Positions 54,915-63,245 of a stretch of 64,000 nucleotides of DNA are shown here, piece by piece; within the stretch, counting starts at the first letter, position 1; each line of letters begins with the position of its first letter. Position numbers and translations under genes: made by a program. Below the pieces are notes generated by a model that was not told where the DNA came from, made no database searches, and worked only from the letters and a program-made list of their open reading frames with translations. The stretch is from contig NZ_DATAVI010000065.1 in the NCBI RefSeq assembly GCF_036267815.1, forward strand, positions 20,383 through 84,382, given 5' to 3'. The stretch is from Nocardioides sp. GTDB lineage: Bacteria; Actinomycetota; Actinomycetes; Propionibacteriales; Nocardioidaceae.

Positions 54915-55076
54915 ATGAGTGGGATGAACGACCTTTTCCTCCTCGAGCCGGAGTACCACTACCACGCCGACCGCACGCGCGGTGAGCTCCAGCCGGTGCG
55001 ACACCGCAAGTGGCGCCGTCGGCTGAAGTGGGACGGCCCCAGTGGGGCCACCGACGAGAAGAACTGGATCAACTGA
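54915..55076 (+). CDS. Small basic-tailed protein (M)SGMNDLFLLEPEYHYHADRTRGELQPVRHRKWRRRLKW...
   Basis: ORF immediately upstream of the LAL gene; similar to the 29128 sORF. Confidence 0.6.
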   Translation: MSGMNDLFLLEPEYHYHADRTRGELQPVRHRKWRRRLKWDGPSGATDEKNWIN

Positions 55077-55113
55077 GATGCCGGTGTCCGTGGTCCCCGC
55101 CAAGATGGACCAC

Positions 55114-58053
55114 ATGACATCGGAGTTGGTCGGACGAGATGCCGAGCTGGAGCAGCTGTGCTCCACGCTCGGCATCTCTGCGTCCACCGTCCCGGCCGAG
55201 CGGGCCGCTGTCCTGCTCGCGGGCGACGCCGGTGTCGGCAAGACCCGCCTGCTGACCGAGCTCCGCGACCGTGCGGTCGAGCAGGGCTGGCTGGTGCTGG
55301 CCGGTCACTGCCTCGACTTCGCCGACAGCGCCCTTCCCTACCTCCCCTTCTCCGAGATCACCGGCCGTATCTCCCGTGTGCTGCCCGACCTCTTCGACGA
55401 GGTTGCCGAGCGCCACCCCGCCCTGCTCCGTCTGCTGCCCGGCCAGCGGATGTTGAGCAAGGCCACCGACCCCGAGTCGGTCCCCGCCGACCAGGCGGCC
55501 CTCTTCGACGCCGTCCACGCCCTGGCCGAGTGCGTGGGCGAGCGCCAGCGCCTGCTGCTCGTGGTCGAGGACCTCCACTGGGCCGACCACTCGACGCGCG
55601 ACCTGATGAGCTTCCTGTTCGCCCGGGGCTTCGAGTCCCAGGTCGCCCTGGTCGGCTCCTACCGCACCGACGACCTCCACCGCCGCCATCCACTCCGGCG
55701 CCAGGTGTCCACCTGGGTCCGGATGACCGGAGTCGAGCGGGTCCAGCTCGAGCCCCTGCGTCGCGCCGACGTACGTCGGCTCGTCGAGCAGCTCAGCCCC
55801 GAGCCGCTGTCGCAGGAGCGGCTCCGCGACATCGTCGGCCGCGCCGAGGGCAACGCGTTCTTCGCCGAGGAGCTGGTCGGTGCCACGCACGTGCGCACCG
55901 GCCGGATCCCCGAAGACCTCGCCGAGCTGCTCCTGGTCCGGCTCGAGACCCTCGACGACGCCGCGGTGACGGCGGTCCGCGCCGCCGCCGTGGCCGGCCG
56001 CCGGGTCTCGCACGCCGCGCTGACCTCGGTGGTCGGCCTCGAGTCCGGCGACCTCGACCGGGCCCTCCGCGACGCCGTGGACGCGCACGTGCTCGTGCCG
56101 ACCAGTGACGACTTCTACCGCTTCCGTCACGCCCTGCTGGCCGAGGCGGTCTACGACGACCTCCTGCCCGGAGAGCGGGCCTCTCTCCACGCGGCGTACG
56201 TCCGCGTGCTGCTCGACGGTCGAGCCGCCGGCACGGCGGCCGAGCTGGCCCGCCATGCGCGCTTGGCCAAGGACTTCCCGACGGCGCTGACCGCCAGCCT
56301 CCGCGCCGGTGACGACGCGCGCGGTGTCGGCGGCGCGGAGGAGGCGGCCCAGCACTACCTCCAGGCGCTCGATCTGTGGTCCGACGCGCGGCTCCTGGAC
56401 CCGGCGCAGGAGGCCGGCCTCGACTACCCCCGCCTGGTCGGCCTGGTCTCCGAGGCGCTGATCGCGGCCGGTCACCCGGCCCGAGCCCTCGGCGTGGCCC
56501 GTGAGCAGCTCGAGCACCTCCCGGCCGACACCGAGCCGTCGGTGCGGGGGCAGATCCTGGGCGTCGTCGCTAGCTCGCTCTACATGACCGAGACGCTGGA
56601 GGATCCGCTCGCGCTGACCACCGAGGCGCTGTCCTTGGTCCCCGACGAGCCCACCCGTGCCCGGGTGAAGGTGCTGGCGATCCACGCACTGATGCTGGGC
56701 CGCGCGAGCCGCTACGCGGAGGGCCGCGAGGTCGCGATGACCGCCGCGGCCCTGGCCGAGCGGCTCGACCTGCCCCGCCTGGCCAGCGACATCCAGACCA
56801 CCCTGGTGAGTCTCCAGCGCATGGACGGCTCCACCGAGTCGCTGGTCGAGGCCTTCCGGTCCGCGATCGCCGGAGCCGTCGAGGCGGGTGCGTCCAACAC
56901 CGAGCTGCGCGCGCTCCTCCTGCTCGGCAACCATCTCCTCGACAGCGGCGAGTTCGCCGAGGCCGAGGAGACCCTGAGCCGGGCCGTGACCCGCGCGAAG
57001 GCCGAGGGCACGCCCTGGGTGCCCTACGCCGCGGAGGCGCGGTGGCTGCACGCCGTCTCGCTGCGGATGCAGGGCCGGTGGGACGACGCGCTGCGCGTGC
57101 TCGACACCTCCATGGAGGTCGTCCCGCCGATCTACGAGGCCGTGCTGGGCGCGACCAGGGCGCAGATCCTCGTGGGACGGGGAGATCCCGCGGGTGTGGC
57201 GCTGGCGCGCGAGCTGCGCCCGTTCTGGCGCGAGGAGGGGATCGTCGCGACCACCGGCGGCACCGCGGAGCTCGAGGCCGCCGAGCTCGCCGGAGACCAG
57301 GACACCGCCGCCGAGCTGTACCAGCTGATCTGCGAGATGCTCACCAAGATCTGGCACCCGCTCTTCCAGGCCCGGGTGCGACTTGCCTCGGTCACGCTCT
57401 CGGCGTTCGCCCAGGGAGCGGCTCGTCGCAGCGCCGGCGAGCGGCTCGCCGACGCACCGTTCGTCGCGGGGGTCGCCGACGACGCGCACGCCGTCTACGA
57501 CCGCCGCCAGACCCACGCCGGGAGCTCGTGGGGGCCCGAGAGCATGGCCTGGGTCGCCAGGGTCGACGCCGAGCTGCTGCGCTGGCGCTGGGTGGCCGAC
57601 GTCGAGCCGCCGTCCCAGCGCGAGCTCGTGGCGGCCTGGCGCGGCGTCGAGGCCCGGTTCGAGACGTTCGGCTCGCCCTACGAGCTGGCCTCGGTCCGAG
57701 CCACCCTCGCCGAGGTCCTGGCCGCGACCGGCGACACCGCCGGGGCCGACGTCGTCGCCGAGGCTGCGGTCGCGGCGGCCGAGTCGCTCGGGGCCAAGCC
57801 GTTGCTCGCCCGGCTCGGCAGGCCGGGTGCGGCGCCGAGACCGGTCGCCGGGCACGGCGTCAGCCTCACGCCGCGTGAGTCGGAGATCCTCGCCCTGGTC
57901 GCCCAGGGCCGCAGCAACGGCGAGATCGGCAGACAGCTCTTCATCAGCACCAAGACGGTCTCGGTCCACGTCTCCAACATCCTCGGCAAGCTCGGTGCCT
58001 CCGGTCGCACCGAGGCGGCGGCGATCGCCCGACGCGACGGGCTGCTCGGCTGA
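55114..58053 (+). CDS. Large ATP-binding LuxR (LAL/STAND AAA + HTH) regulator
   Basis: LVGRDAE, GDAGVGKT, VEDLHWAD, GNAFFAEEL; C-terminal LuxR HTH. Confidence 0.92.
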   Translation: MTSELVGRDAELEQLCSTLGISASTVPAERAAVLLAGDAGVGKTRLLTELRDRAVEQGWLVLAGHCLDFADSALPYLPFSEITGRISRVLPDLFDEVAERHPALLRLLPGQRMLSKATDPESVPADQAALFDAVHALAECVGERQRLLLVVEDLHWADHSTRDLMSFLFARGFESQVALVGSYRTDDLHRRHPLRRQVSTWVRMTGVERVQLEPLRRADVRRLVEQLSPEPLSQERLRDIVGRAEGNAFFAEELVGATHVRTGRIPEDLAELLLVRLETLDDAAVTAVRAAAVAGRRVSHAALTSVVGLESGDLDRALRDAVDAHVLVPTSDDFYRFRHALLAEAVYDDLLPGERASLHAAYVRVLLDGRAAGTAAELARHARLAKDFPTALTASLRAGDDARGVGGAEEAAQHYLQALDLWSDARLLDPAQEAGLDYPRLVGLVSEALIAAGHPARALGVAREQLEHLPADTEPSVRGQILGVVASSLYMTETLEDPLALTTEALSLVPDEPTRARVKVLAIHALMLGRASRYAEGREVAMTAAALAERLDLPRLASDIQTTLVSLQRMDGSTESLVEAFRSAIAGAVEAGASNTELRALLLLGNHLLDSGEFAEAEETLSRAVTRAKAEGTPWVPYAAEARWLHAVSLRMQGRWDDALRVLDTSMEVVPPIYEAVLGATRAQILVGRGDPAGVALARELRPFWREEGIVATTGGTAELEAAELAGDQDTAAELYQLICEMLTKIWHPLFQARVRLASVTLSAFAQGAARRSAGERLADAPFVAGVADDAHAVYDRRQTHAGSSWGPESMAWVARVDAELLRWRWVADVEPPSQRELVAAWRGVEARFETFGSPYELASVRATLAEVLAATGDTAGADVVAEAAVAAAESLGAKPLLARLGRPGAAPRPVAGHGVSLTPRESEILALVAQGRSNGEIGRQLFISTKTVSVHVSNILGKLGASGRTEAAAIARRDGLLG

Positions 58054-58076
58054 GCCTCATCGGCCAGGATGGTCAG

Positions 58077-58102
58077 GCGTGACAGCGCGAGGGTTGGGGT
58101 AC
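58077..58102 (+). promoter_or_regulatory. Possible SigB/SigF-type promoter GCGT-N16-GGGTAC
   Basis: About 50 bp upstream of the repeat-peptide start. Confidence 0.35.
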
Positions 58103-58155
58103 GACCTCCTCGAGGGCGCGTTCGTCCTCGCCCTACCCCTCGAAGGAGACCACCC

Positions 58156-58398
58156 ATGACGACCACCCCTGAGGAGCCCGCAGGCGGGCTCAGCGACGAC
58201 GACATCACGGCCGGTGGCACCGGCGTCGACGAGCCGACCACCGGCGACGCGGACGGCACCGACGGCACCGATGGCGACGGCACGGACGGTGACGGCACCG
58301 ACGGCACCGACGGAACGGACACCGACGGCACGGACGGCACTGACGGCGACGGGACCGACGGTGACGGCACCGACGGCACCGACGGGAGCGGGTCCTGA
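58156..58398 (+). CDS. 80-aa Asp/Gly/Thr repeat peptide (candidate modified precursor)
   Basis: RBS GAAGGAG; unique N-terminal segment (LSDDDI) followed by 16 DG dipeptides; stop overlaps the next gene. Confidence 0.85.
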   Translation: MTTTPEEPAGGLSDDDITAGGTGVDEPTTGDADGTDGTDGDGTDGDGTDGTDGTDTDGTDGTDGDGTDGDGTDGTDGSGS

Positions 58399-59549
58399 GC
58401 TCCTCGCTCGACCTGCTCAGCGGCGACGCCCAGACCTTCGCCACGAAGGTCTGGGCGTCGCGGGTGCTCATCCACCAGACCGAGCCCGAGCTGCTGACCG
58501 CCCTGCTCGCACTGGCCGACGTCGACCACCTCCTGACCGAGACCGCCATTCGGGTCCCGGCCGTCCGCGTCGCCCGTGACGGGAGCGTCCTCGCCGAGTC
58601 CGCGTTCGTCCGCAGCGGCGTCACGGTGGCCGGCAAGCCGCTGACCGGCCTGGTCGACCCGCGCAAGGTGCTGGCGCTCTACGACGCCGGGGCGACCGTG
58701 GTGCTCCAGGCCCTCCAGCGGTACTGGCCGCCGTTGACCGGCCTCGTGTCCCGGCTCGAGCTCGAGCTCGGACACCCCTGCCAGGCCAATGCCTACCTCA
58801 CCCCGCCCGGGTCGCAGGGGTTCGCGGTGCACGAGGACCCCCACGACGTGTTCGTGTTCCAGACCCACGGCACCAAGCTGTGGGAGATCCACCACGCCGA
58901 CGGCGACCGCCTCTGCGATCAGCATGCCGGCTGCCGGGTCGACGACGTCTTGATGCGTCCCGGGGTCTCGATGTACCTGCCGACCGGCACCCCGCACGCC
59001 GCCAGGGCCCAAGACACCGCCAGCCTCCACGTCACCGTCGGGATCAACCAGCGCACCTGGTCCGACCTTCTGCGGCAGGTGGTCGAGCCGCTGGTCGAGG
59101 AGCTGGCTACGGTGCACCTGCCGGCCGGAGTCCTGGGCAGCCCCGACGAGCTGGCCGCCGGTCTCGCCGAGCGGCTCGAGGCCTTCGCCGACGCCGTACG
59201 CCGGGTCGACACCCACGACGCGGTCGCCCGCGACGCCGAGCGGTTCCTGTGCAGCCGCAACCCGCGCTCGTCCGGGGGCCTGCTGGCCCGCTCCGCGGCT
59301 CGCGAGCTGACTCCCGAGAGTGCGCTGCGCCGCCGACCGGGCGTGCCGTGCGTCGTACGGCAGCGGGGAGATCGCCTGCTCCTCCTCCTCGGCGACCGGA
59401 GCCTCGACGTCCCGGCCTGGCTGGGTCCAGCCGTCTCCGAGCTCCGGCCCGGAGCCGTCCTCCGCCCGCGCGACCTGCCCCTCACCGAAGAGAGCGCGGT
59501 CGTGCTGTGCAGACGCCTGCTGCGCGAAGGGCTGCTCGAGCCGGCATGA
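58395..59549 (+). CDS. JmjC/cupin_4 (ROX/YcfD-like) Fe(II)/2OG oxygenase
   Basis: ANAYLTPPGSQGFAVHEDPHDVF (HxD), GTKLW, PTGTPH; C-terminal winged-helix-like domain; likely CTG start at 58395. Confidence 0.88.
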   Translation: MSSSLDLLSGDAQTFATKVWASRVLIHQTEPELLTALLALADVDHLLTETAIRVPAVRVARDGSVLAESAFVRSGVTVAGKPLTGLVDPRKVLALYDAGATVVLQALQRYWPPLTGLVSRLELELGHPCQANAYLTPPGSQGFAVHEDPHDVFVFQTHGTKLWEIHHADGDRLCDQHAGCRVDDVLMRPGVSMYLPTGTPHAARAQDTASLHVTVGINQRTWSDLLRQVVEPLVEELATVHLPAGVLGSPDELAAGLAERLEAFADAVRRVDTHDAVARDAERFLCSRNPRSSGGLLARSAARELTPESALRRRPGVPCVVRQRGDRLLLLLGDRSLDVPAWLGPAVSELRPGAVLRPRDLPLTEESAVVLCRRLLREGLLEPA

Positions 59550-60427
59550 GCGAGCGGTGCAGCGTCGCGGCTCGCGCGCGCGGTGACGAGCTGGCCGGGA
59601 CGGCCACCCGGGTGAGCTCGTTCCTGCTGGTCGAGGACGCCGGCCCGTGGGGCGAGGTCGCGCTGCGGGACTCGCGGCTGCCCGACGACGTGGCCGCCTG
59701 GCTCCGTGCCCAGGCGGAGGCCACCCGGGTGCGGATCCTGTTGATACGTCGCCCGGGACGCACCACCCGCACCCGGCCGCGGGTGTTCGCCGTTCGCTCA
59801 GGGCAGTGGTGCGAGCGCGCCGAGCTCGACCGGATCGACGACGTGACGACCCTCGACGTCGCGGCGCTCGCGGCCGGGAGGTCGGTGGGCCTGGAACCTT
59901 GGGGCGAGCCGCTGGTCCTGGTGTGCACGCACGGTCGCCACGATGCCTGCTGTGCCGAACGCGGTCGGCCGCTGGCGGCCGAGCTGGGTCAGATCGAGCC
60001 GGGCCGGGTCTGGGAGTGCTCCCACCTGGGCGGTGACCGGTTCGCCGGCAACGTCCTGGTCCTTCCCGAGGGCCTCGGCTTCGGGCGCGTCGACGTCGCC
60101 GCGGCCGCCCGCCTGCTCGCCGACCTCGACCGGGGCGAGCTCGACCTCGACCTGCTGCGTGGTCGGTGCACCCTGCCGATGGCAGCGCAGTACGCCGAGG
60201 TGCAGCTGCGCCGCGAGCTCGCCGAGGTCCGCGACGATGCGCTGCGCTGCACCTCCCTACGACGGGTCGACGGACTCATGCGGGTGGCGTTCGAGCGCGA
60301 GGGCACGACGTACGACGTGTCGGTGCGCACCGTCCCCGGCCCGCCCGCGACCCTGACCTGCCGGGCCGCCGGCACCAACCCGGTGCCGCGTCACGAGATC
60401 ATGTCGGTCACCACACCCGCGGGCTGA
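59546..60427 (+). CDS. Sucrase/ferredoxin-like (thioredoxin-fold 2Fe-2S) protein
   Basis: ERCS, LLVEDAGPWG, VCTHGRHDACCA, WECSHLGGDRFA; ATGA overlap. Confidence 0.88.
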   Translation: MSERCSVAARARGDELAGTATRVSSFLLVEDAGPWGEVALRDSRLPDDVAAWLRAQAEATRVRILLIRRPGRTTRTRPRVFAVRSGQWCERAELDRIDDVTTLDVAALAAGRSVGLEPWGEPLVLVCTHGRHDACCAERGRPLAAELGQIEPGRVWECSHLGGDRFAGNVLVLPEGLGFGRVDVAAAARLLADLDRGELDLDLLRGRCTLPMAAQYAEVQLRRELAEVRDDALRCTSLRRVDGLMRVAFEREGTTYDVSVRTVPGPPATLTCRAAGTNPVPRHEIMSVTTPAG

Positions 60428-60435
60428 GCCGCACA

Positions 60436-60471
60436 CATACTCCTAGTATGGCGACGGATCGGAGTCGCCAT
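60436..60471 (+). promoter_or_regulatory. Inverted repeat CATACT-N3-AGTATG with embedded TAGTAT -10, and an RBS/start-occluding hairpin
   Basis: ATGGCGAC (60448-60455) pairs with GTCGCCAT (60464-60471). Confidence 0.5.
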
Positions 60472-61882
60472 GACCACGCTCGACAACACCCCTGGCCAGC
60501 CCAGCACCGCGGCCCTGACCGCGCGCCGGTTCGAGCGGATGCGCCCGTTCGGCGGGCAGGAGGCACCGCGGTTCGCGACCCGCGGGCTGCCGCCAGGTCC
60601 TCGGTGGCCGGTCTGGCTTCAGAGCGTGGCCCTGCTGCGCTTCCGCCACCAGTTCGTGCCCCGCATGTGGCGGCGGTACGGCGACGTCTTCACCGTCCGG
60701 GTGATCCCGGGCGGGCGGCCGCTGGTGCTCTTCACGCGGCCCGAGCATGCCAAGGAGATCTTCGCCGGCGATCCCGAGGTGTTCCACGCGGGGAAGGGCA
60801 ACGCCATCCTCGGGCCGATCATGGGTGAGCACTCCCTACTGCTCCAGGACGGTCGCGAGCACCAGCGTGCCCGCGCGCTGCTGATGCCGGCGTTCAACGG
60901 ACACGCGCTGCGGGGGTACCGCGGCCTGGTGGAGGAGGTCGCGCGCGCCGAGGTGGCGCGGTGGCACTCCGGCGAGGAGTTCCGCAGCCTCGACCGGATG
61001 AACGCGCTGACCCTGGAGGTGATCCTGCGCGTCGTCTTCGGGGTCACCGAGGAGGCGCGGCTCGCGCCGCTGCGACCCTGCGTCACCCGCACGGTCGCCA
61101 TCAGGCCGGCCGTGCTGCTGGGCTGGGGCTACCCGGTCCTCCAGCGGTTCGGGCCCTGGCGCAGGACGGTCCAGAACGCCTACCGCCTCGACGAGCTCAT
61201 CTACGCCGAGATCCGCGAACGGCGCTCGGCGCCGGACCTGCCGCGGCGCGGCGACGTCCTCTCGCGGCTGATCCTGGCCGGCTCGGGTCACGAGGACGGC
61301 GCGCAGACGGAGCGGCTCACCGACGAGGAGCTGCGCGACCAGCTGGTCACCCTGCTGCTCGCCGGGCACGAGACCACCGCCTCGGCGCTGTCGTGGGCCC
61401 TGTACGAGCTCGGCCGCGACGCCGGAGAGCTCGCCCGGGCGCGCGCGGCCGCCCGGTCGGGCGACGACGCCCACCTCGAGGCCGTCCTGAAGGAGGCGAT
61501 GCGGCTCCACCCGGTCATCCCCATGGTCGTGCGAACCCTGATGCGGCCGGCGACCGTGGGCGGCTGGGACCTGCCCGCTGGTGCCACGGTCGGACCCTCG
61601 ATCCTGGTCGCCCACGCCCGTGCCGACAACCACCCCGACCCCGGGCGGTTCGCGCCCGACCGGTTCCTCGGCGCCAACCCGCCGGTCAACACCTGGATCC
61701 CCTTCGGAGGCGGCGTACGCCGGTGCATCGGCGCCGGGTTCTCGCTGATGGAGGGCGTGGAGGTGCTGCGCCAGGTTCTTGCGACGTACGCCGTGACAGC
61801 CGTGGGGACCGACCGGCCACGGGTCCGCAACATCACCAGCGTCCCCCACCGAGGCTCGCGGGTCCGGATCACGAGGGCATGA
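60470..61882 (+). CDS. Cytochrome P450
   Basis: AGHETT I-helix, EAMR, FGGGVRRCIG heme Cys. Confidence 0.95.
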   Translation: MTTLDNTPGQPSTAALTARRFERMRPFGGQEAPRFATRGLPPGPRWPVWLQSVALLRFRHQFVPRMWRRYGDVFTVRVIPGGRPLVLFTRPEHAKEIFAGDPEVFHAGKGNAILGPIMGEHSLLLQDGREHQRARALLMPAFNGHALRGYRGLVEEVARAEVARWHSGEEFRSLDRMNALTLEVILRVVFGVTEEARLAPLRPCVTRTVAIRPAVLLGWGYPVLQRFGPWRRTVQNAYRLDELIYAEIRERRSAPDLPRRGDVLSRLILAGSGHEDGAQTERLTDEELRDQLVTLLLAGHETTASALSWALYELGRDAGELARARAAARSGDDAHLEAVLKEAMRLHPVIPMVVRTLMRPATVGGWDLPAGATVGPSILVAHARADNHPDPGRFAPDRFLGANPPVNTWIPFGGGVRRCIGAGFSLMEGVEVLRQVLATYAVTAVGTDRPRVRNITSVPHRGSRVRITRA

Positions 61883-61946
61883 AAGTGGTCACGGGTTGCC
61901 CCATTTCCGACTCATGTCCCCGTCAGGACCGTCACAATCAGGTGTT

Positions 61947-63245
61947 ATGGCATGGGGGGCTCGTCTTCGTGCGCTCCGGATGGATCTCGGGCCGTTCCGA
62001 GAGCACCGGGACTTCCGCCTGCTCCTGACCGCCGGGACGGTCTTCTATCTCGGCGGGATGATGACCTACGTCGCGATCCCGTTCCAGATCTACCAGCTCA
62101 CGCACTCCAACTTCGCGGTCGGCGCGGTCGGCCTGGTCGAGCTCGTGCCCCTGGTCGTCTTCGGCCTGTACGGCGGCGCCCTGGCCGATCACGTCGACCG
62201 CCGGCTGCTGCTGATCTGGACCGGCATCGCGCAGGCGGCGTTCACGGCCTGGCTCTGCATCAACGCCTTCTCGTCGCACCCCGCGCTGTGGGAGATCTTC
62301 GTGGTCTCGGGCCTGCTGTCCTCCGCCTCGGCCCTTCAGCGGCCCTCGCGCGAGGCGCTGCTGCCGCGCACGGTGCGCCACGACGAGCTCACCGCCGCCA
62401 ACGCGCTCTCGAGCTTCGGCATGCAGGCCGGAGTGCTGGTCGGGCCCACGATCGGCGGACTCATCGTCGCCTCGGCCGGGCCCGGCTGGTGCTTCCTGGT
62501 CGACATCGTGGGGCTCTTCGCCGCCTCGATGATGTACGCCGCGATGCGCCGCTACCCCCATGTCGGCGAGACCGAGGCGCCCAGCCTGGCCGGCATCGGC
62601 GAGGGCCTGCGGTACGCGCTGAGCCGGCGTGACCTCCTCGGCACCTACGTCGTCGACCTCGCCGCGATGCTGCTGGCGATGCCGGTGGTGCTCTTCCCGG
62701 CGCTGGCGCAGAAGGTCTTCGGCGACCCGCACCTGCTCGGGCTGCTCTACTCCGCCGAGACCGTCGGGGCGCTGCTCGCGACGGCGTCGTCGGGCTGGAC
62801 CCGCCGCGTGCACCACCACGGCCGCGCCATCGTGCTGGCCGCGGTGACCTACGGCGCCTTCATCGCCCTGGCCGGCTGGGCGCCGTCCATCTGGCTGGCG
62901 GTGCTGTTCTTCACCCTGGCCGGTGCGGCCGACATGATCTCCGCTGTCTTCCGCGGCACCATCTGGGCCCAGACCATCCCCGACACGCTGCGGGGACGCC
63001 TGGCCGGCATCGAGATGCTGAGCTACTCCGTCGGCCCGCTCGGCGGCCAGGTCCGCGCCGGCGTCGTGGCCGACCGCTGGACCGTCCGCGGCTCGATCGT
63101 CAGCGGCGGCGTCTCCTGCGTGGCCGGCGTGGCGCTCACCGCCGTCTGGCTGCACGACTTCTGGCGGTACGACGAGCGCACCGACGAGTTCGCCCAGGCG
63201 CAGCGTGCGGCCCGGGTGGCGGTGGCGGAGACCGCCGGCCCCTGA
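61947..63245 (+). CDS. MFS exporter (DHA3/EntS-like)
   Basis: GALADHVDRR motif A; about 12 TM segments; LRGRLAG. Confidence 0.88.
   Translation: MAWGARLRALRMDLGPFREHRDFRLLLTAGTVFYLGGMMTYVAIPFQIYQLTHSNFAVGAVGLVELVPLVVFGLYGGALADHVDRRLLLIWTGIAQAAFTAWLCINAFSSHPALWEIFVVSGLLSSASALQRPSREALLPRTVRHDELTAANALSSFGMQAGVLVGPTIGGLIVASAGPGWCFLVDIVGLFAASMMYAAMRRYPHVGETEAPSLAGIGEGLRYALSRRDLLGTYVVDLAAMLLAMPVVLFPALAQKVFGDPHLLGLLYSAETVGALLATASSGWTRRVHHHGRAIVLAAVTYGAFIALAGWAPSIWLAVLFFTLAGAADMISAVFRGTIWAQTIPDTLRGRLAGIEMLSYSVGPLGGQVRAGVVADRWTVRGSIVSGGVSCVAGVALTAVWLHDFWRYDERTDEFAQAQRAARVAVAETAGP

What the first reader, a model, noticed from the sequence alone, without database searches (positions are those of the whole stretch)
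58156..60427. Candidate undescribed RiPP-like system: (DGT/DG)n repeat peptide + JmjC oxygenase + sucrase-ferredoxin
Seen: three tightly coupled genes (stop/start overlaps at 58395-58398 and 59546-59549). The first encodes an 80-aa peptide with a unique N-terminal segment (..GGLSDDDITAGG..) followed by 16 Asp-Gly dipeptides, arranged as an exact duplication of a 21-aa block (DGTDGTDGDGTDGDGTDGTDG-TDT-same). It has no signal peptide. Established: ROX/YcfD-type JmjC enzymes hydroxylate residues in proteins; beta-hydroxy-Asp is a classic Fe(III)/Ca ligand; DxDG arrays bind Ca; sucrase-ferredoxins are 2Fe-2S thioredoxin-fold proteins of largely unknown role. Inference: the peptide is a leader+core substrate that is multiply hydroxylated at Asp, giving a ribosomal metal-chelating or biomineralising polymer, with the ferredoxin as a redox partner.
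Basis: partly seen in the sequence, partly recalled or inferred. Interest (0 to 1): 0.88.

Follow-up and report, generated by a model that had tools for sequence, protein, structure and literature searches.

The report
Acidic repeat peptide with JmjC hydroxylase
A tiny, unannotated gene for a very aspartate-rich repeat peptide sits directly in front of a human-NO66-like iron oxygenase and an iron-sulfur protein in this Nocardioides genome and in many other actinobacteria; this looks like an undescribed enzyme-plus-own-substrate system, probably switched on by stress, but its chemistry is still untested.

Summary
Window 58156-58398 encodes an 80-aa peptide with no basic residues. It has 16 Asp-Gly dipeptides in two identical 21-aa blocks. 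Its stop is overlapped by the only plausible start (CTG 58395) of a JmjC_2 oxygenase. That gene's stop overlaps the ATG of a Suc_Fer-like protein.

The trio is conserved. Peptide, JmjC and Suc_Fer occur in this order in 30/30 family loci. An acidic upstream peptide is present in 143/150 loci across Actinomycetota. It is missing only from JmjC homologues below about 31% identity, from one truncated contig, and from one locus that my filter missed.

All peptides share an N-terminal motif, P-L-x-D-[DE]-[DE]-[IM]-x-T, followed by a variable acidic repeat core. Peptide type tracks the enzyme clade.

The enzyme is closest to human NO66 and MINA53, with an intact catalytic set. Its C-terminal domain has a fold like a RiPP recognition element.

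New here: a sigma-B/F-type promoter (GNNT-N13-16-GGGTAY) precedes the peptide in 53/128 loci, against about 2 expected.

Most likely the peptide is the enzyme's dedicated, multiply hydroxylated substrate. Asp hydroxylation, metal binding and the ferredoxin's role are inferences. A classical secreted RiPP is not supported: there is no conserved protease or exporter. I found no published description.

The parts
58077..58102 (+). Sigma-B/F-type promoter: -35 GCGTG (58077-81), 15-nt spacer, -10 GGGTAC (58097-58102), 54 nt before the peptide ATG
   Evidence: GGGTAY lies on the sense strand at -120..-15 in 53/128 loci, against about 2 expected from the loci's own background. A G.[GT]T -35 element sits 13-16 nt upstream in 41/53, against 7/53 in a shifted control. 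The pattern matches published SigB-homologue promoters, GTTT/GNNT-N12-16-GGGTAC/T (PMC8346170). The genome encodes 2-3 SigB/F/G-subfamily sigma factors. No transcription start has been mapped.
58142..58149 (+). Shine-Dalgarno sequence GAAGGAGA of the peptide gene
   Evidence: Read directly from the sequence. A GGAGG-like SD is present in almost all of the 30 family loci.
58156..58398 (+). Gene for the 80-aa acidic repeat peptide (not annotated; the exact sequence is absent from the 15-billion-protein collection)
   Evidence: Conserved upstream of JmjC in 143/150 loci. Database relatives are all named 'hypothetical protein' and carry no Pfam domain.
58189..58212 (+). Conserved N-terminal recognition motif, here L12-S-D-D-D-I-T-A19. 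Family consensus is P-L-x-D-[DE]-[DE]-[IM]-x-T; the window has A where most have T.
   Evidence: In 124 distinct sequences: L 115, D 120, D/E 111, D/E 122, M/I 111, T 116. Nucleotide variation is concentrated at third codon positions. The motif is shared by peptide classes A, B and C across the phylum.
58246..58386 (+). Acidic repeat core. Includes two identical 21-aa blocks (58252-58314 and 58324-58386) and 16 DG dipeptides.
   Evidence: The blocks differ by 6 synonymous and 0 non-synonymous changes. Repeat number and unit vary between species.
58383..58422 (+). Predicted hairpin that buries the SD-like GGGAG (58383-87) and the CTG start / TGA stop overlap (58395-98)
   Evidence: MFE fold of 58380-58480: -66.2 kcal/mol against -40.4 for shuffles, z = -7.9. 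The function in translational coupling is inferred.
58425..58459 (+). Conserved 15-bp hairpin (GACGCCCAGACCTTC / GAAGGTCTGGGCGTC) inside the first 22 codons of the JmjC gene
   Evidence: 94.2% of cells are paired, against 30-46% with slid partners. Seven cells carry compensatory changes, against 1.1 +/- 1.0 in shuffles (0/500). It is not consistently present outside Nocardioidaceae and close clades.
58395..59549 (+). NO66-like JmjC_2 Fe(II)/2OG oxygenase, 384 aa from CTG 58395 (annotated in databases as 361 aa from GTG 58464). Catalytic residues: H146 (58830-32), D148, K161 (58875-77), H201 (58995-97). C-terminal RRE-like domain: aa 305-384 (59307-59546).
   Evidence: Pfam. PDB sequence search: NO66 1.8e-21, MINA53 7e-19, YcfD about 1e-4. 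AF2 model pLDDT 88. Foldseek: NO66 6.7e-25 over the whole length. Catalytic residues are essentially invariant in 47 homologues, with one D148-to-H exception. C-terminal domain fold.
59546..60427 (+). Suc_Fer-like (Apd1/Aim32-type thioredoxin-like ferredoxin family) protein, 293 aa; its ATG overlaps the JmjC stop (ATGA)
   Evidence: Pfam PF06999, 4.8e-20. It is the only copy in the genome. It lies downstream of JmjC in 30/30 and 80/80 loci. C5, C127, H132, C135, C136, H160, D164 and C272 are conserved in all or nearly all of the 80 true orthologues.
55042..58053 (+). Context only: LAL-type regulator (AAA_16 + TPR + LuxR/GerE), upstream
   Evidence: Pfam. Upstream in 58/80 Nocardioides loci, but other genes occupy this position in other genera of the family.
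60470..63245 (+). Context only: cytochrome P450 (60470-61882) and MFS_3 (EntS-like) transporter (61896-63245), downstream
   Evidence: Pfam. Present downstream in 37/80 and 28/80 Nocardioides loci. Not part of the conserved core.

Best explanation
This is a self-contained, translationally coupled three-gene cassette.

Transcription and translation. In Nocardioidaceae it appears to be transcribed from a sigma-B/F-type (general stress) promoter. Ribosomes load at the strong SD of the peptide gene. The oxygenase has no usable start signal of its own in this genome: its start is a CTG overlapping the peptide's stop, buried in a hairpin. It is therefore made only by ribosomes that have just finished the peptide. 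The Suc_Fer gene is coupled in the same way through an ATGA overlap.

Chemistry. The 80-aa product is a cytoplasmic, disordered polyanion. Its conserved N-terminal motif (P-L-x-D-D/E-D/E-I/M-x-T) docks it on the NO66-like JmjC enzyme, plausibly on the RRE-like C-terminal domain. The Fe(II)/2-oxoglutarate centre then hydroxylates side chains of the peptide. The most likely target is C-beta of Asp at several sites in the repeat core; less likely is a single site inside the motif. The Suc_Fer-like [2Fe-2S]-type protein most likely feeds single electrons to return Fe(III) to Fe(II) after uncoupled turnovers. This is the job ascorbate does for animal 2OG hydroxylases. Alternatively it makes the system redox-dependent.

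Product. The hydroxylated polyanion probably stays in the cell and binds cations or basic partners during stress.

Shown versus inferred. Shown: gene structure, conservation, coupling signals, enzyme family and intact catalytic residues, co-diversification of peptide and enzyme, and the promoter motif. Inferred: that the peptide is the substrate, which residue is modified, the ferredoxin's role, and the product's function.
For: - Linkage: 30/30 family loci have the same order. Suc_Fer follows JmjC in 80/80 further Nocardioides loci, and 143/150 loci overall have the acidic upstream ORF. The association extends across the phylum to JmjC homologues of 33% identity or more, and is absent from the five homologues below 31%.
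- The peptide is a selected protein, not a spacer. Differences between the repeat blocks are synonymous only and GC3 is 0.90. In the conserved motif, nucleotide variation sits at third codon positions.
- Leader-plus-core layout: a universal motif, a variable linker, and a variable repeat core 57-133 aa long overall.
- Peptide class tracks enzyme clade: 5 label changes on the tree against 19 in shuffles, 0/200 as low.
- The enzyme is catalytically competent by sequence. H146/D148/H201, K161 and N132/Y134 are essentially invariant. It is ROX-like over its whole length.
- After NO66 and MINA53, the C-terminal domain's best PDB matches are leader-binding RRE domains: TruD, the PbtF RRE with bound leader, LynD, McbB, ThcOx and PqqD (probability 0.94-0.99). 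PMC12710340 independently notes RRE-like folds fused to PF08007 JmjC domains.
- JmjC hydroxylases acting on ribosomal precursor peptides have precedent: BipG (PMC12707348) and CzlI (PMC11575548).
- The genome has one JmjC_2 gene and one Suc_Fer gene, and they are adjacent.
- Distribution within the genus is patchy (4 of 14 genomes), as expected for an accessory module rather than a housekeeping ribosome modifier.
Against: - There is no biochemical, proteomic or transcript evidence.
- Known ROX enzymes hydroxylate His or Arg of basic ribosomal proteins, not Asp of a polyanion.
- The repeat core differs strongly between classes: DGTD, EGPADGG..G(H/Q)DGGADG and PTEDDENLD. Meanwhile the active site is almost invariant. 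This fits a single site in the shared motif as well as, or better than, many sites in the core.
- The RRE-like fold is inherited from the whole ROX family, including NO66, which has no known leader peptide. The Foldseek E-values for RRE hits are weak (0.03-0.3).
- Conserved Arg residues of that domain do not cleanly separate peptide-linked from peptide-less homologues.
- Suc_Fer is absent from some peptide-JmjC loci and occurs without JmjC in 4 of 15 related genomes. It is therefore not obligatory.
- The promoter motif is nearly confined to Nocardioidaceae (2/34 loci elsewhere).
Confidence: 0.5

Rival explanations
1. The JmjC is a genuine ribosomal (or other housekeeping) protein hydroxylase like NO66, MINA53 or YcfD. 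The acidic peptide is not its substrate but a stoichiometric partner: a pseudosubstrate or inhibitor, a nucleic-acid or ribosome mimic, a chaperone that keeps the enzyme soluble, or a targeting factor.
For: Whole-length structural and sequence similarity to ROX enzymes. All characterised members act on ribosomal proteins. Strict translational coupling would give roughly stoichiometric amounts, which suits a binding partner. A universal short motif with a variable tail suits a docking peptide. This is the only JmjC_2 gene in the genome.
Against: Only 4 of 14 genomes of the same genus carry the enzyme, which is odd for a ribosome modifier. The peptide's repeat core is under purifying selection and co-diversifies with the enzyme. 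A mere tether would not need that. No ribosomal or translation genes are linked.
Confidence: 0.2
2. The peptide ORF is mainly a regulatory leader. An N-terminal acidic, proline-containing nascent chain (MTTTPEEP..DDD) provokes intrinsic ribosome destabilisation or pausing. Because JmjC and Suc_Fer can only be translated by ribosomes that finish the ORF, the ORF gates enzyme synthesis, for example according to Mg2+ or translation-factor status.
For: Acidic sequences with intermittent prolines near the N-terminus are the described IRD context (bioRxiv 10.1101/2021.02.02.429294 and PMC9718836). The JmjC start is non-canonical and structurally buried, with a conserved hairpin downstream. The acidic composition is conserved while the repeat sequence is not.
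Against: The motif conserves specific non-acidic residues (L, I/M, T) across the phylum, which IRD does not require. The ORF is long (57-133 aa) with a conserved core start (GDADGTDG) and conserved C-terminal endings. Block differences that are synonymous only indicate selection on the full protein. This mechanism could coexist with the substrate model.
Confidence: 0.1
3. A classical secreted RiPP. The leader is cleaved and the hydroxylated Asp-rich core (further tailored by the P450) is exported by the MFS_3 pump as a metal chelator, under control of the LAL regulator.
For: In this window the cassette is flanked by an LAL regulator, a P450 and an EntS-family MFS_3 transporter. These neighbours recur in 58, 37 and 28 of 80 Nocardioides loci. 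The peptide has a leader/core layout and the enzyme has an RRE-like domain.
Against: No protease is present in the conserved core. The neighbours are missing from other genera, where permease, ABC or amidohydrolase genes flank the trio. An 8-kDa polyanion is not a plausible MFS cargo. No IdeR, Zur or Fur box is present. The promoter is of the stress type.
Confidence: 0.12
4. The polyanion is an iron (or other metal) buffer or chaperone that loads or protects the mononuclear Fe of the JmjC and the Fe-S cluster of the Suc_Fer protein, without being covalently modified.
For: Arrays resembling DxDxDG and D-x-T/S-D motifs look like known cation-binding motifs (my own knowledge of DxDxDG calcium-binding loops). 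Both partner proteins are iron proteins.
Against: This does not explain the sequence-specific N-terminal motif or the class-specific cores that track the enzyme clade. Other JmjC enzymes need no such chaperone.
Confidence: 0.08

Closest known systems
Ribosomal oxygenases (ROX): human NO66/RIOX1 and MINA53/RIOX2; bacterial YcfD/RoxA and Rhodothermus tROX
   Same: JmjC_2 domain, HxD...H triad, 2OG-binding Lys, helical middle domain and C-terminal winged-helix-like domain. Best PDB matches by sequence are NO66 1.8e-21 and MINA53 7e-19. By fold, NO66 scores 6.7e-25 with TM 0.65.
   Different: Known ROX enzymes hydroxylate His or Arg in basic ribosomal proteins encoded elsewhere. This clade always has its own co-encoded acidic repeat peptide and usually a Suc_Fer partner. 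It is much closer to the eukaryotic NO66 than to the bacterial YcfD (about 1e-4 by sequence).
JmjC hydroxylases of RiPP pathways: BipG (biphenomycin ornithine hydroxylase, PMC12707348) and CzlI (curacozole Phe hydroxylase, PMC11575548)
   Same: A JmjC-type Fe/2OG enzyme encoded next to, and acting on, a ribosomal precursor peptide.
   Different: Those sit in multi-enzyme clusters with proteases, cyclases and exporters, and modify one residue of a short core. Here the conserved unit is only peptide + JmjC + Suc_Fer. The core is a long polyanionic repeat and there is no processing machinery.
Asp/Asn beta-hydroxylases: FIH (a JmjC enzyme that hydroxylates Asn, Asp and His in ankyrin repeats), AspH, and CinX/DurX of cinnamycin and duramycin (my own knowledge)
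   Same: Precedent for Fe/2OG-dependent C-beta hydroxylation of Asp in proteins and ribosomal peptides.
   Different: Different subfamilies. There is no evidence here that Asp is the target, and the FIH-type consensus (LxxxxxD/E-I/V-N) does not fit the motif spacing.
Apd1/Aim32 thioredoxin-like [2Fe-2S] ferredoxins (Suc_Fer-like, PF06999)
   Same: Pfam family membership. Conserved Cys/His pattern C127-x7-CC ... H160-x3-D164, resembling the Cx8C...Hx3H ligand layout of Apd1 (my own knowledge).
   Different: The last His is replaced by an invariant Asp, and extra conserved C5 and C272 are present. It is a bacterial protein, operon-coupled to an oxygenase. No solved relative was found by sequence.
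RiPP recognition elements (PqqD-like RRE domains)
   Same: The enzyme's C-terminal 80 residues fold as beta-beta-beta(-beta)-alpha-alpha (pLDDT 94). After the ROX C-terminal domains, their best matches are RRE domains of TruD, PbtF, LynD, McbB, ThcOx and PqqD.
   Different: There is no sequence similarity, and Foldseek E-values are weak (0.03-0.3). The fold is shared with NO66 and MINA53, for which no leader peptide is known.

Membership tests
ROX / JmjC_2 (PF08007) Fe(II)/2OG oxygenases | Match to PF08007 above the gathering score | tested here: met
   73.1 bits against a cut-off of 22, E 1.9e-20
ROX / JmjC_2 (PF08007) Fe(II)/2OG oxygenases | 2-His-1-carboxylate facial triad (HxD...H) and a basic residue that binds the 2OG C5 carboxylate | tested here: met
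   H146, D148, H201 and K161 (aligned to the Lys of NO66 'LEGRKLW') are invariant in 21 orthologues. They are conserved in 46-47 of 47 phylum-wide homologues.
ROX / JmjC_2 (PF08007) Fe(II)/2OG oxygenases | Three-domain architecture: JmjC barrel, helical dimerisation domain and C-terminal winged-helix-like domain | tested here: met
   AF2 model pLDDT 88, pTM 0.83. Foldseek aligns about 450 columns to NO66, MINA53, tROX and YcfD. The C-terminal domain alone matches NO66 with TM 0.85, rmsd 1.8 A.
ROX / JmjC_2 (PF08007) Fe(II)/2OG oxygenases | The substrate is a ribosomal protein residue | not testable with these tools
   Requires MS of ribosomal proteins in wild type against a deletion strain.
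RiPP biosynthetic system | A precursor peptide gene adjacent to the modifying enzyme, with a conserved leader and a variable core | tested here: met
   143/150 loci. Motif P-L-x-D-[DE]-[DE]-[IM]-x-T followed by a variable repeat core.
RiPP biosynthetic system | A leader-recognition domain (RRE) in a pathway protein | tested here: inconclusive
   The C-terminal domain is RRE-like by fold. But the fold is shared with NO66 and MINA53, and binding is untested.
RiPP biosynthetic system | Leader protease and/or dedicated export as conserved parts of the cluster | tested here: not met
   No protease is present in any conserved position. MFS_3 occurs in only 28/80 Nocardioides loci, and different neighbours are found in other genera.
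RiPP biosynthetic system | A post-translationally modified product | not testable with these tools
   No MS data exist. The peptide has no Lys or Arg, so it is invisible to tryptic proteomics.
Suc_Fer-like / Apd1-type [2Fe-2S] proteins (PF06999) | Match to PF06999 above the gathering score | tested here: met
   72.9 bits against a cut-off of 34.9
Suc_Fer-like / Apd1-type [2Fe-2S] proteins (PF06999) | Four cluster ligands (Cx8C ... Hx3H in Apd1) | tested here: inconclusive
   C127, C135/C136 and H160 are conserved in all 80 true orthologues. The fourth position is an invariant Asp (D164). C5, H132 and C272 are also conserved. Cluster binding is untested.
Sigma-B/F-dependent (general stress) promoters of Actinomycetota | -35 GTTT/GNNT, spacer 12-16 nt, -10 GGGTA(C/T), upstream of the gene | tested here: met
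   Window: GCGTG-N15-GGGTAC (58077-58102). Found in 53/128 loci against about 2 expected. The -35 element is present in 41/53 against 7/53 in a control. Consensus taken from PMC8346170.
Sigma-B/F-dependent (general stress) promoters of Actinomycetota | Transcription start and dependence on the sigma factor | not testable with these tools
SigB/F/G-type sigma genes are present in the genome.

The most novel reading that the evidence does not exclude
An NO66-like 'ribosomal' oxygenase lineage, present in hundreds of actinobacterial lineages, does not work on ribosomes. Instead it converts its own co-encoded, genetically templated polyanion into a poly-(beta-hydroxy-Asp) protein. This would be a stress-induced, ribosomally made metal-binding or metal-buffering polymer. 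Its formation would report on O2, Fe(II) and 2-oxoglutarate, and the Apd1-like [2Fe-2S] protein would serve as the bacterial stand-in for ascorbate by re-reducing the enzyme's iron. The ROX C-terminal 'winged helix' would then be an ancestral peptide-leader-binding (RRE-type) domain. That would also give a function to the equivalent, still unexplained, domain of human NO66 and MINA53.
Probability: 0.15. Interest if true: 0.9.

Novelty: new variant of a known kind. Interest (0 to 1): 0.74.

Why it matters
The closest relatives of this enzyme are the human nucleolar hydroxylases NO66 and MINA53. Their biology is only partly understood, and the role of their C-terminal domain is not established. 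A bacterial sister lineage that carries its own substrate candidate next door would make substrate recognition by this enzyme class directly testable with three small genes.

It would also add a new kind of ribosomally encoded, post-translationally hydroxylated polyanion to actinobacterial stress physiology. And it would give a first physiological partner to the poorly understood Suc_Fer/Apd1 family of iron-sulfur proteins.

There is a practical point as well. The peptide gene is missed by annotation in this genome, and the oxygenase is annotated 23 residues too short because its start is a CTG. Related peptide genes that are annotated are all labelled 'hypothetical protein'.

Tried and rejected
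- NCBIfam found nothing for any of the three proteins. Pfam found nothing for the peptide.
- No solved structure is related by sequence to the Suc_Fer protein or to the C-terminal domain alone.
- Metal and stress operator boxes upstream of the peptide in 141 loci (IdeR, Zur, Fur-like, LexA, NrdR, DosR, OxyR-like, SoxR): no site better than chance. The sigma-70 promoter and intrinsic terminator scan of 57800-60700 found none.
- An apparent 'loss of all cluster ligands in 10/90 Suc_Fer orthologues' was an artefact. The file /data/P0001.fa also held the JmjC protein, so in loci without Suc_Fer the first tblastn hit was the JmjC. I identified this from their lengths and from the loci involved and discarded it.
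- I tested whether conserved Arg residues of the RRE-like domain (R313/314, R335, R373/374/377) occur only in peptide-linked enzymes. They do not separate cleanly: one peptide-less homologue keeps them and some class B enzymes lack several.
- The LAL regulator, P450 and MFS_3 as parts of the system: rejected as core parts because they recur only within part of Nocardioides.
- A genome-wide scan for the sigma-B/F pattern plus SD plus ORF gave only 30 sites, including the peptide. The other products, such as an HATPase_c_2 anti-sigma-type protein, RbpA, Holin-X and DUF6766, are compatible with a stress regulon but do not prove one.
- Literature searches for the cassette found no description. Terms tried: JmjC with sucrase ferredoxin; ROX in actinobacteria; JmjC with RiPP; Apd1/Aim32; NO66 with Mycobacterium or Streptomyces. 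I also read the 2010 comparative-genomics survey of bacterial JmjC neighbourhoods, PMC2938197.
- Modelling the peptide-enzyme complex was not possible.

Full report
**What is in the window**

On the + strand, a strong Shine-Dalgarno sequence (GAAGGAGA, 58142-49) precedes an ATG at 58156. This opens an 80-codon ORF that ends at TGA 58396-98. The product is MTTTPEEPAGGLSDDDITAGGTGVDEPTTGDA, then the 21-aa block DGTDGTDGDGTDGDGTDGTDG, then TDT, the same block again, and SGS.

The peptide has 22 Asp, 23 Gly, 19 Thr, and no Lys, Arg, His, Cys or aromatic residue. It has exactly 16 Asp-Gly dipeptides, a net charge of about -25, and no hydrophobic segment that could be a signal peptide.

The two blocks differ at 6 of 63 nucleotides, and all six are synonymous third positions. 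GC3 in this frame is 0.90, like the neighbouring genes at 0.93. So this frame is translated and under purifying selection. The exact peptide is not in the 15-billion-protein collection, which means it was not called as a gene here.

**The two junctions**

In the frame of the JmjC gene there is no ATG, GTG or TTG between the upstream stop and GTG 58464. Yet the 23 codons before 58464 encode the conserved N-terminus (..LDLLSGDAQTFxxKVWAS..) found in all orthologues.

In 28 of 30 related loci a GTG or TTG lies 0-8 nt after the peptide's stop. In the window and in L017 the only candidate at the homologous position is a CTG that overlaps the stop (cCTGAg, 58395-98). The database product of this gene starts at 58464 and is therefore probably 23 residues too short.

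The free mRNA around the junction is predicted to fold unusually well: -66 kcal/mol against -40 for shuffles, z = -7.9. A first hairpin (58383-58422) buries the SD-like GGGAG and the CTG. A second, 15-bp hairpin (58425-58459) lies inside codons 11-22 of the JmjC gene.

The second hairpin is conserved in Nocardioidaceae. In 40 sequences, 94% of cells are paired against 30-46% with slid partners. Seven cells carry compensatory changes, against 1.1 in shuffles. Some of these changes alter both encoded amino acids, for example T/V to A/A and T/KV to D/ES. Outside the family and its nearest clades this hairpin is not consistently found.

The JmjC stop and the Suc_Fer ATG overlap as ATGA (59546-49).

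Together these features indicate that both enzymes are translated only by ribosomes that have completed the peptide. That conclusion is an inference.

**Conservation**

A search of 201 genomes of the family found the JmjC orthologue (50-63% identity) in most genera, but in only 4 of 14 genomes of the window's own genus. In all 30 loci fetched, an acidic ORF with a GGAGG-type SD lies directly upstream and a Suc_Fer gene directly downstream.

A scan of named genomes returned 509 loci. The best 80 are Nocardioides or unnamed Actinomycetota, which places the window in Nocardioides. All 80 have Suc_Fer.

In a 401-genome sample of the phylum, 74 genomes (47 of 248 genera) have a homologue. I fetched 40 of these loci. 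Every JmjC with 33% identity or more has an acidic upstream ORF. The five with 31% or less (L134, L136, L137, L140, L141) have neither a peptide nor Suc_Fer.

Overall, 143 of 150 loci scored positive. The misses are those five, one 1.8-kb contig with no upstream DNA, and one locus (L118) where my composition filter rejected a real peptide that is visible.

A library-wide search counts 571 clusters (50% identity) at E <= 1e-30. Relatives of the peptide in public databases are all called 'hypothetical protein' and have no Pfam domain.

**Anatomy of the peptide family**

All peptides begin with a short motif. In 124 distinct sequences the consensus is P(-1) L(0) x D(2) [DE](3) [DE](4) [MI](5) x T(7), with 115, 120, 111, 122, 111 and 116 matches for the named positions. 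Nucleotide variation is concentrated at third codon positions. The window has LSDDDITA, with A at the T position.

After a Gly/Pro/Ala-rich linker comes the core. It falls into classes:
- Class A (the window): D-[GAS]-[TSD]-D repeats that usually begin GDADGTDG.
- Class B: modules such as EGPADGGxNPGG(H/Q)DGGADG.
- Class C: PTEDDENLDAPGEHSQDTGDE.

On a maximum-likelihood tree of the enzymes, class B is a clade (100/99), class C is a clade (100/98) and class A is a clade (84/79). The peptide-less homologues lie outside. The labels need 5 changes on the tree, against 19 in shuffles. Enzyme and peptide type have therefore diversified together. Both A and B lineages occur within Nocardioidaceae.

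**The oxygenase**

Pfam gives JmjC_2. A profile of 21 orthologues finds human NO66 (1.8e-21), MINA53 (7e-19) and B. subtilis YxbC (6e-12), and only weakly tROX and YcfD (1e-5 to 1e-4).

The AF2 model (pLDDT 88, pTM 0.83) matches NO66 over about 450 columns (E 6.7e-25, TM 0.65). MINA53, tROX and YcfD follow. The three-domain ROX architecture is therefore present.

H146, D148, H201, K161 (aligned with the 2OG-binding Lys of NO66), N132 and Y134 are essentially invariant across 47 homologues. The enzyme should be catalytically active.

**The C-terminal domain**

Modelled alone, residues 305-384 give pLDDT 94, with four strands followed by two helices. The best PDB matches are the C-terminal domains of NO66 and MINA53 (TM 0.85, rmsd 1.8 A).

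The next matches are almost all RiPP leader-recognition domains: TruD, the PbtF RRE with a bound leader fragment, LynD, McbB, ThcOx and PqqD (probability 0.94-0.99, E 0.03-0.3). A 2025 survey independently noted RRE-like folds fused to PF08007 JmjC domains, and RiPP-like contexts for their bacterial homologues (PMC12710340).

This makes docking of the peptide's motif on this domain plausible. But the fold is common to all ROX enzymes. In addition, the conserved Arg residues of the domain do not cleanly separate peptide-linked from peptide-less enzymes. So this is a lead, not proof.

**The Suc_Fer protein**

PF06999 is matched, and this is the only copy in the genome. In the 80 true orthologues, C5, C127, H132, C135, C136, H160, D164 and C272 are conserved. 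The pattern C127-x7-CC...H160-x3-D164 resembles the Cx8C...Hx3H ligand set of yeast Apd1 (my own knowledge), with Asp in place of the last His.

Suc_Fer is missing from some peptide-JmjC loci (classes C and 'other', L114 and L129). It also occurs without JmjC in 4 of 15 related genomes. It is therefore a frequent partner, not an obligatory one.

**Regulation (new in this analysis)**

No IdeR, Zur, Fur, LexA, SoxR or similar box is present upstream. Instead, GGGTA(C/T) occurs on the sense strand 15-120 nt before the peptide start in 53 of 128 loci, where about 2 are expected. The positions peak at -50 to -70.

A G.[GT]T element (GTGT, GCGT, GTTT, GGTT) lies 13-16 nt upstream in 41 of those 53, against 7 of 53 in a shifted control. 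This is the published pattern of promoters read by SigB homologues in Streptomyces and Bacillus (PMC8346170). The window has GCGTG-N15-GGGTAC at 58077-58102.

The genome encodes two sigma factors above the SigB/F/G family cut-off and a third near it. The motif is almost confined to Nocardioidaceae: 51 of 94 loci there, 2 of 34 elsewhere. It lies between the upstream LAL regulator gene and the peptide, so the cassette has its own promoter.

**Neighbours**

The LAL regulator (AAA_16 + TPR + GerE), the P450 and the MFS_3 transporter recur in 58, 37 and 28 of 80 Nocardioides loci. Other genera have permease, ABC-ATPase or amidohydrolase genes in these positions. The neighbours are not part of the conserved unit.

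**Interpretation**

The data fit best a dedicated enzyme-substrate pair (confidence about 0.5). Stress-induced transcription and obligatory coupling would give peptide in amounts at least equal to the enzymes. The N-terminal motif docks on the NO66-like enzyme, which hydroxylates the peptide. The Suc_Fer protein supports the iron centre by one-electron chemistry. JmjC enzymes that hydroxylate ribosomal precursor peptides are known: BipG and CzlI.

Which residue is modified is open. Asp is the only residue common to all cores. However, the nearly invariant active site combined with strongly divergent cores also fits a single site within the shared motif.

The rivals are set out with their tests in the Rival explanations section: a non-substrate partner of a true ribosomal hydroxylase, a regulatory leader acting through acidic nascent-chain effects, a secreted RiPP, and a metal chaperone.

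**Literature and earlier notes**

I found no published description. Earlier notes of this scan describe the same cassette in other genomes. I treated them as leads and re-tested their main claims here.

Noticed in passing
window 58395-58464: The database product of the JmjC gene starts at GTG 58464 (361 aa). It lacks 23 conserved N-terminal residues. The homologous start position is a CTG overlapping the upstream stop.
   Followed up: yes
window 55042-58053: A 1003-aa LAL-type regulator (AAA_16, TPR, LuxR/GerE) lies directly upstream on the same strand. This adjacency holds in 58/80 Nocardioides loci at only about 50% protein identity, which is a surprisingly persistent neighbour for a gene that is not part of the core.
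   Followed up: partly
window 60470-63245: A cytochrome P450 and an EntS-family MFS_3 transporter follow the cassette with gaps of 42 and 13 nt and no predicted terminator. They are conserved downstream in 37/80 and 28/80 Nocardioides loci. Whether they are co-transcribed with the cassette is unknown.
   Followed up: partly
window 60447-60470: A short inverted repeat (GGCGAC ggatcgga GTCGCC) ends at the ATG of the P450 gene. It could occlude that start.
   Followed up: no
window 57678-59216 (-) and other long ORFs on both strands: Very long open frames overlap the cassette on the opposite strand and in other frames (for example 512 aa, and 515 aa at 58880-60427). These are the usual shadow ORFs of high-GC DNA. 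The Thr/Pro/Ala-rich alternative frames of the repeat are open in many relatives too, but they are not conserved as proteins.
   Followed up: partly
L036, L038, L045, L070, L089, L099 (MAG contigs): The peptide frame is broken inside the repeat in several metagenome-assembled genomes. The N-terminal motif and the acidic core end up in different frames. This is most likely an assembly or basecalling error in the repeat rather than a pseudogene.
   Followed up: no
G188:C1:632459-635272 (L017 region): One genome of the same genus has two Suc_Fer-like genes, one upstream and one downstream of the peptide-JmjC pair.
   Followed up: no
L127-L130, L133, L135, L138, L139, L146, L147, L149, L150: Class B peptides carry a Gly-rich module ending in G-(H/Q)-D-G-G-A-D-G. 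The His variant (NPGGHDGG) loosely recalls the Gly-rich His loops that NO66 and MINA53 hydroxylate in uL2 and uL15. His is replaced by Gln in several species.
   Followed up: no
enzyme tree, (L111, L112, L113, L117 against the family loci): The Nocardioidaceae class A enzymes nest (100/99) with enzymes from other families and classes of the phylum. This suggests horizontal transfer of the whole cassette.
   Followed up: no
G000 C77:36149, C81:15380, C61:30671, C39:75067: The few other sites in this genome with the GNNT-N13-16-GGGTAY pattern plus an SD and ORF precede an HATPase_c_2 (anti-sigma-type) protein, a Holin-X protein, RbpA and a DUF6766 membrane protein. These are candidates for the same stress regulon.
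   Followed up: partly
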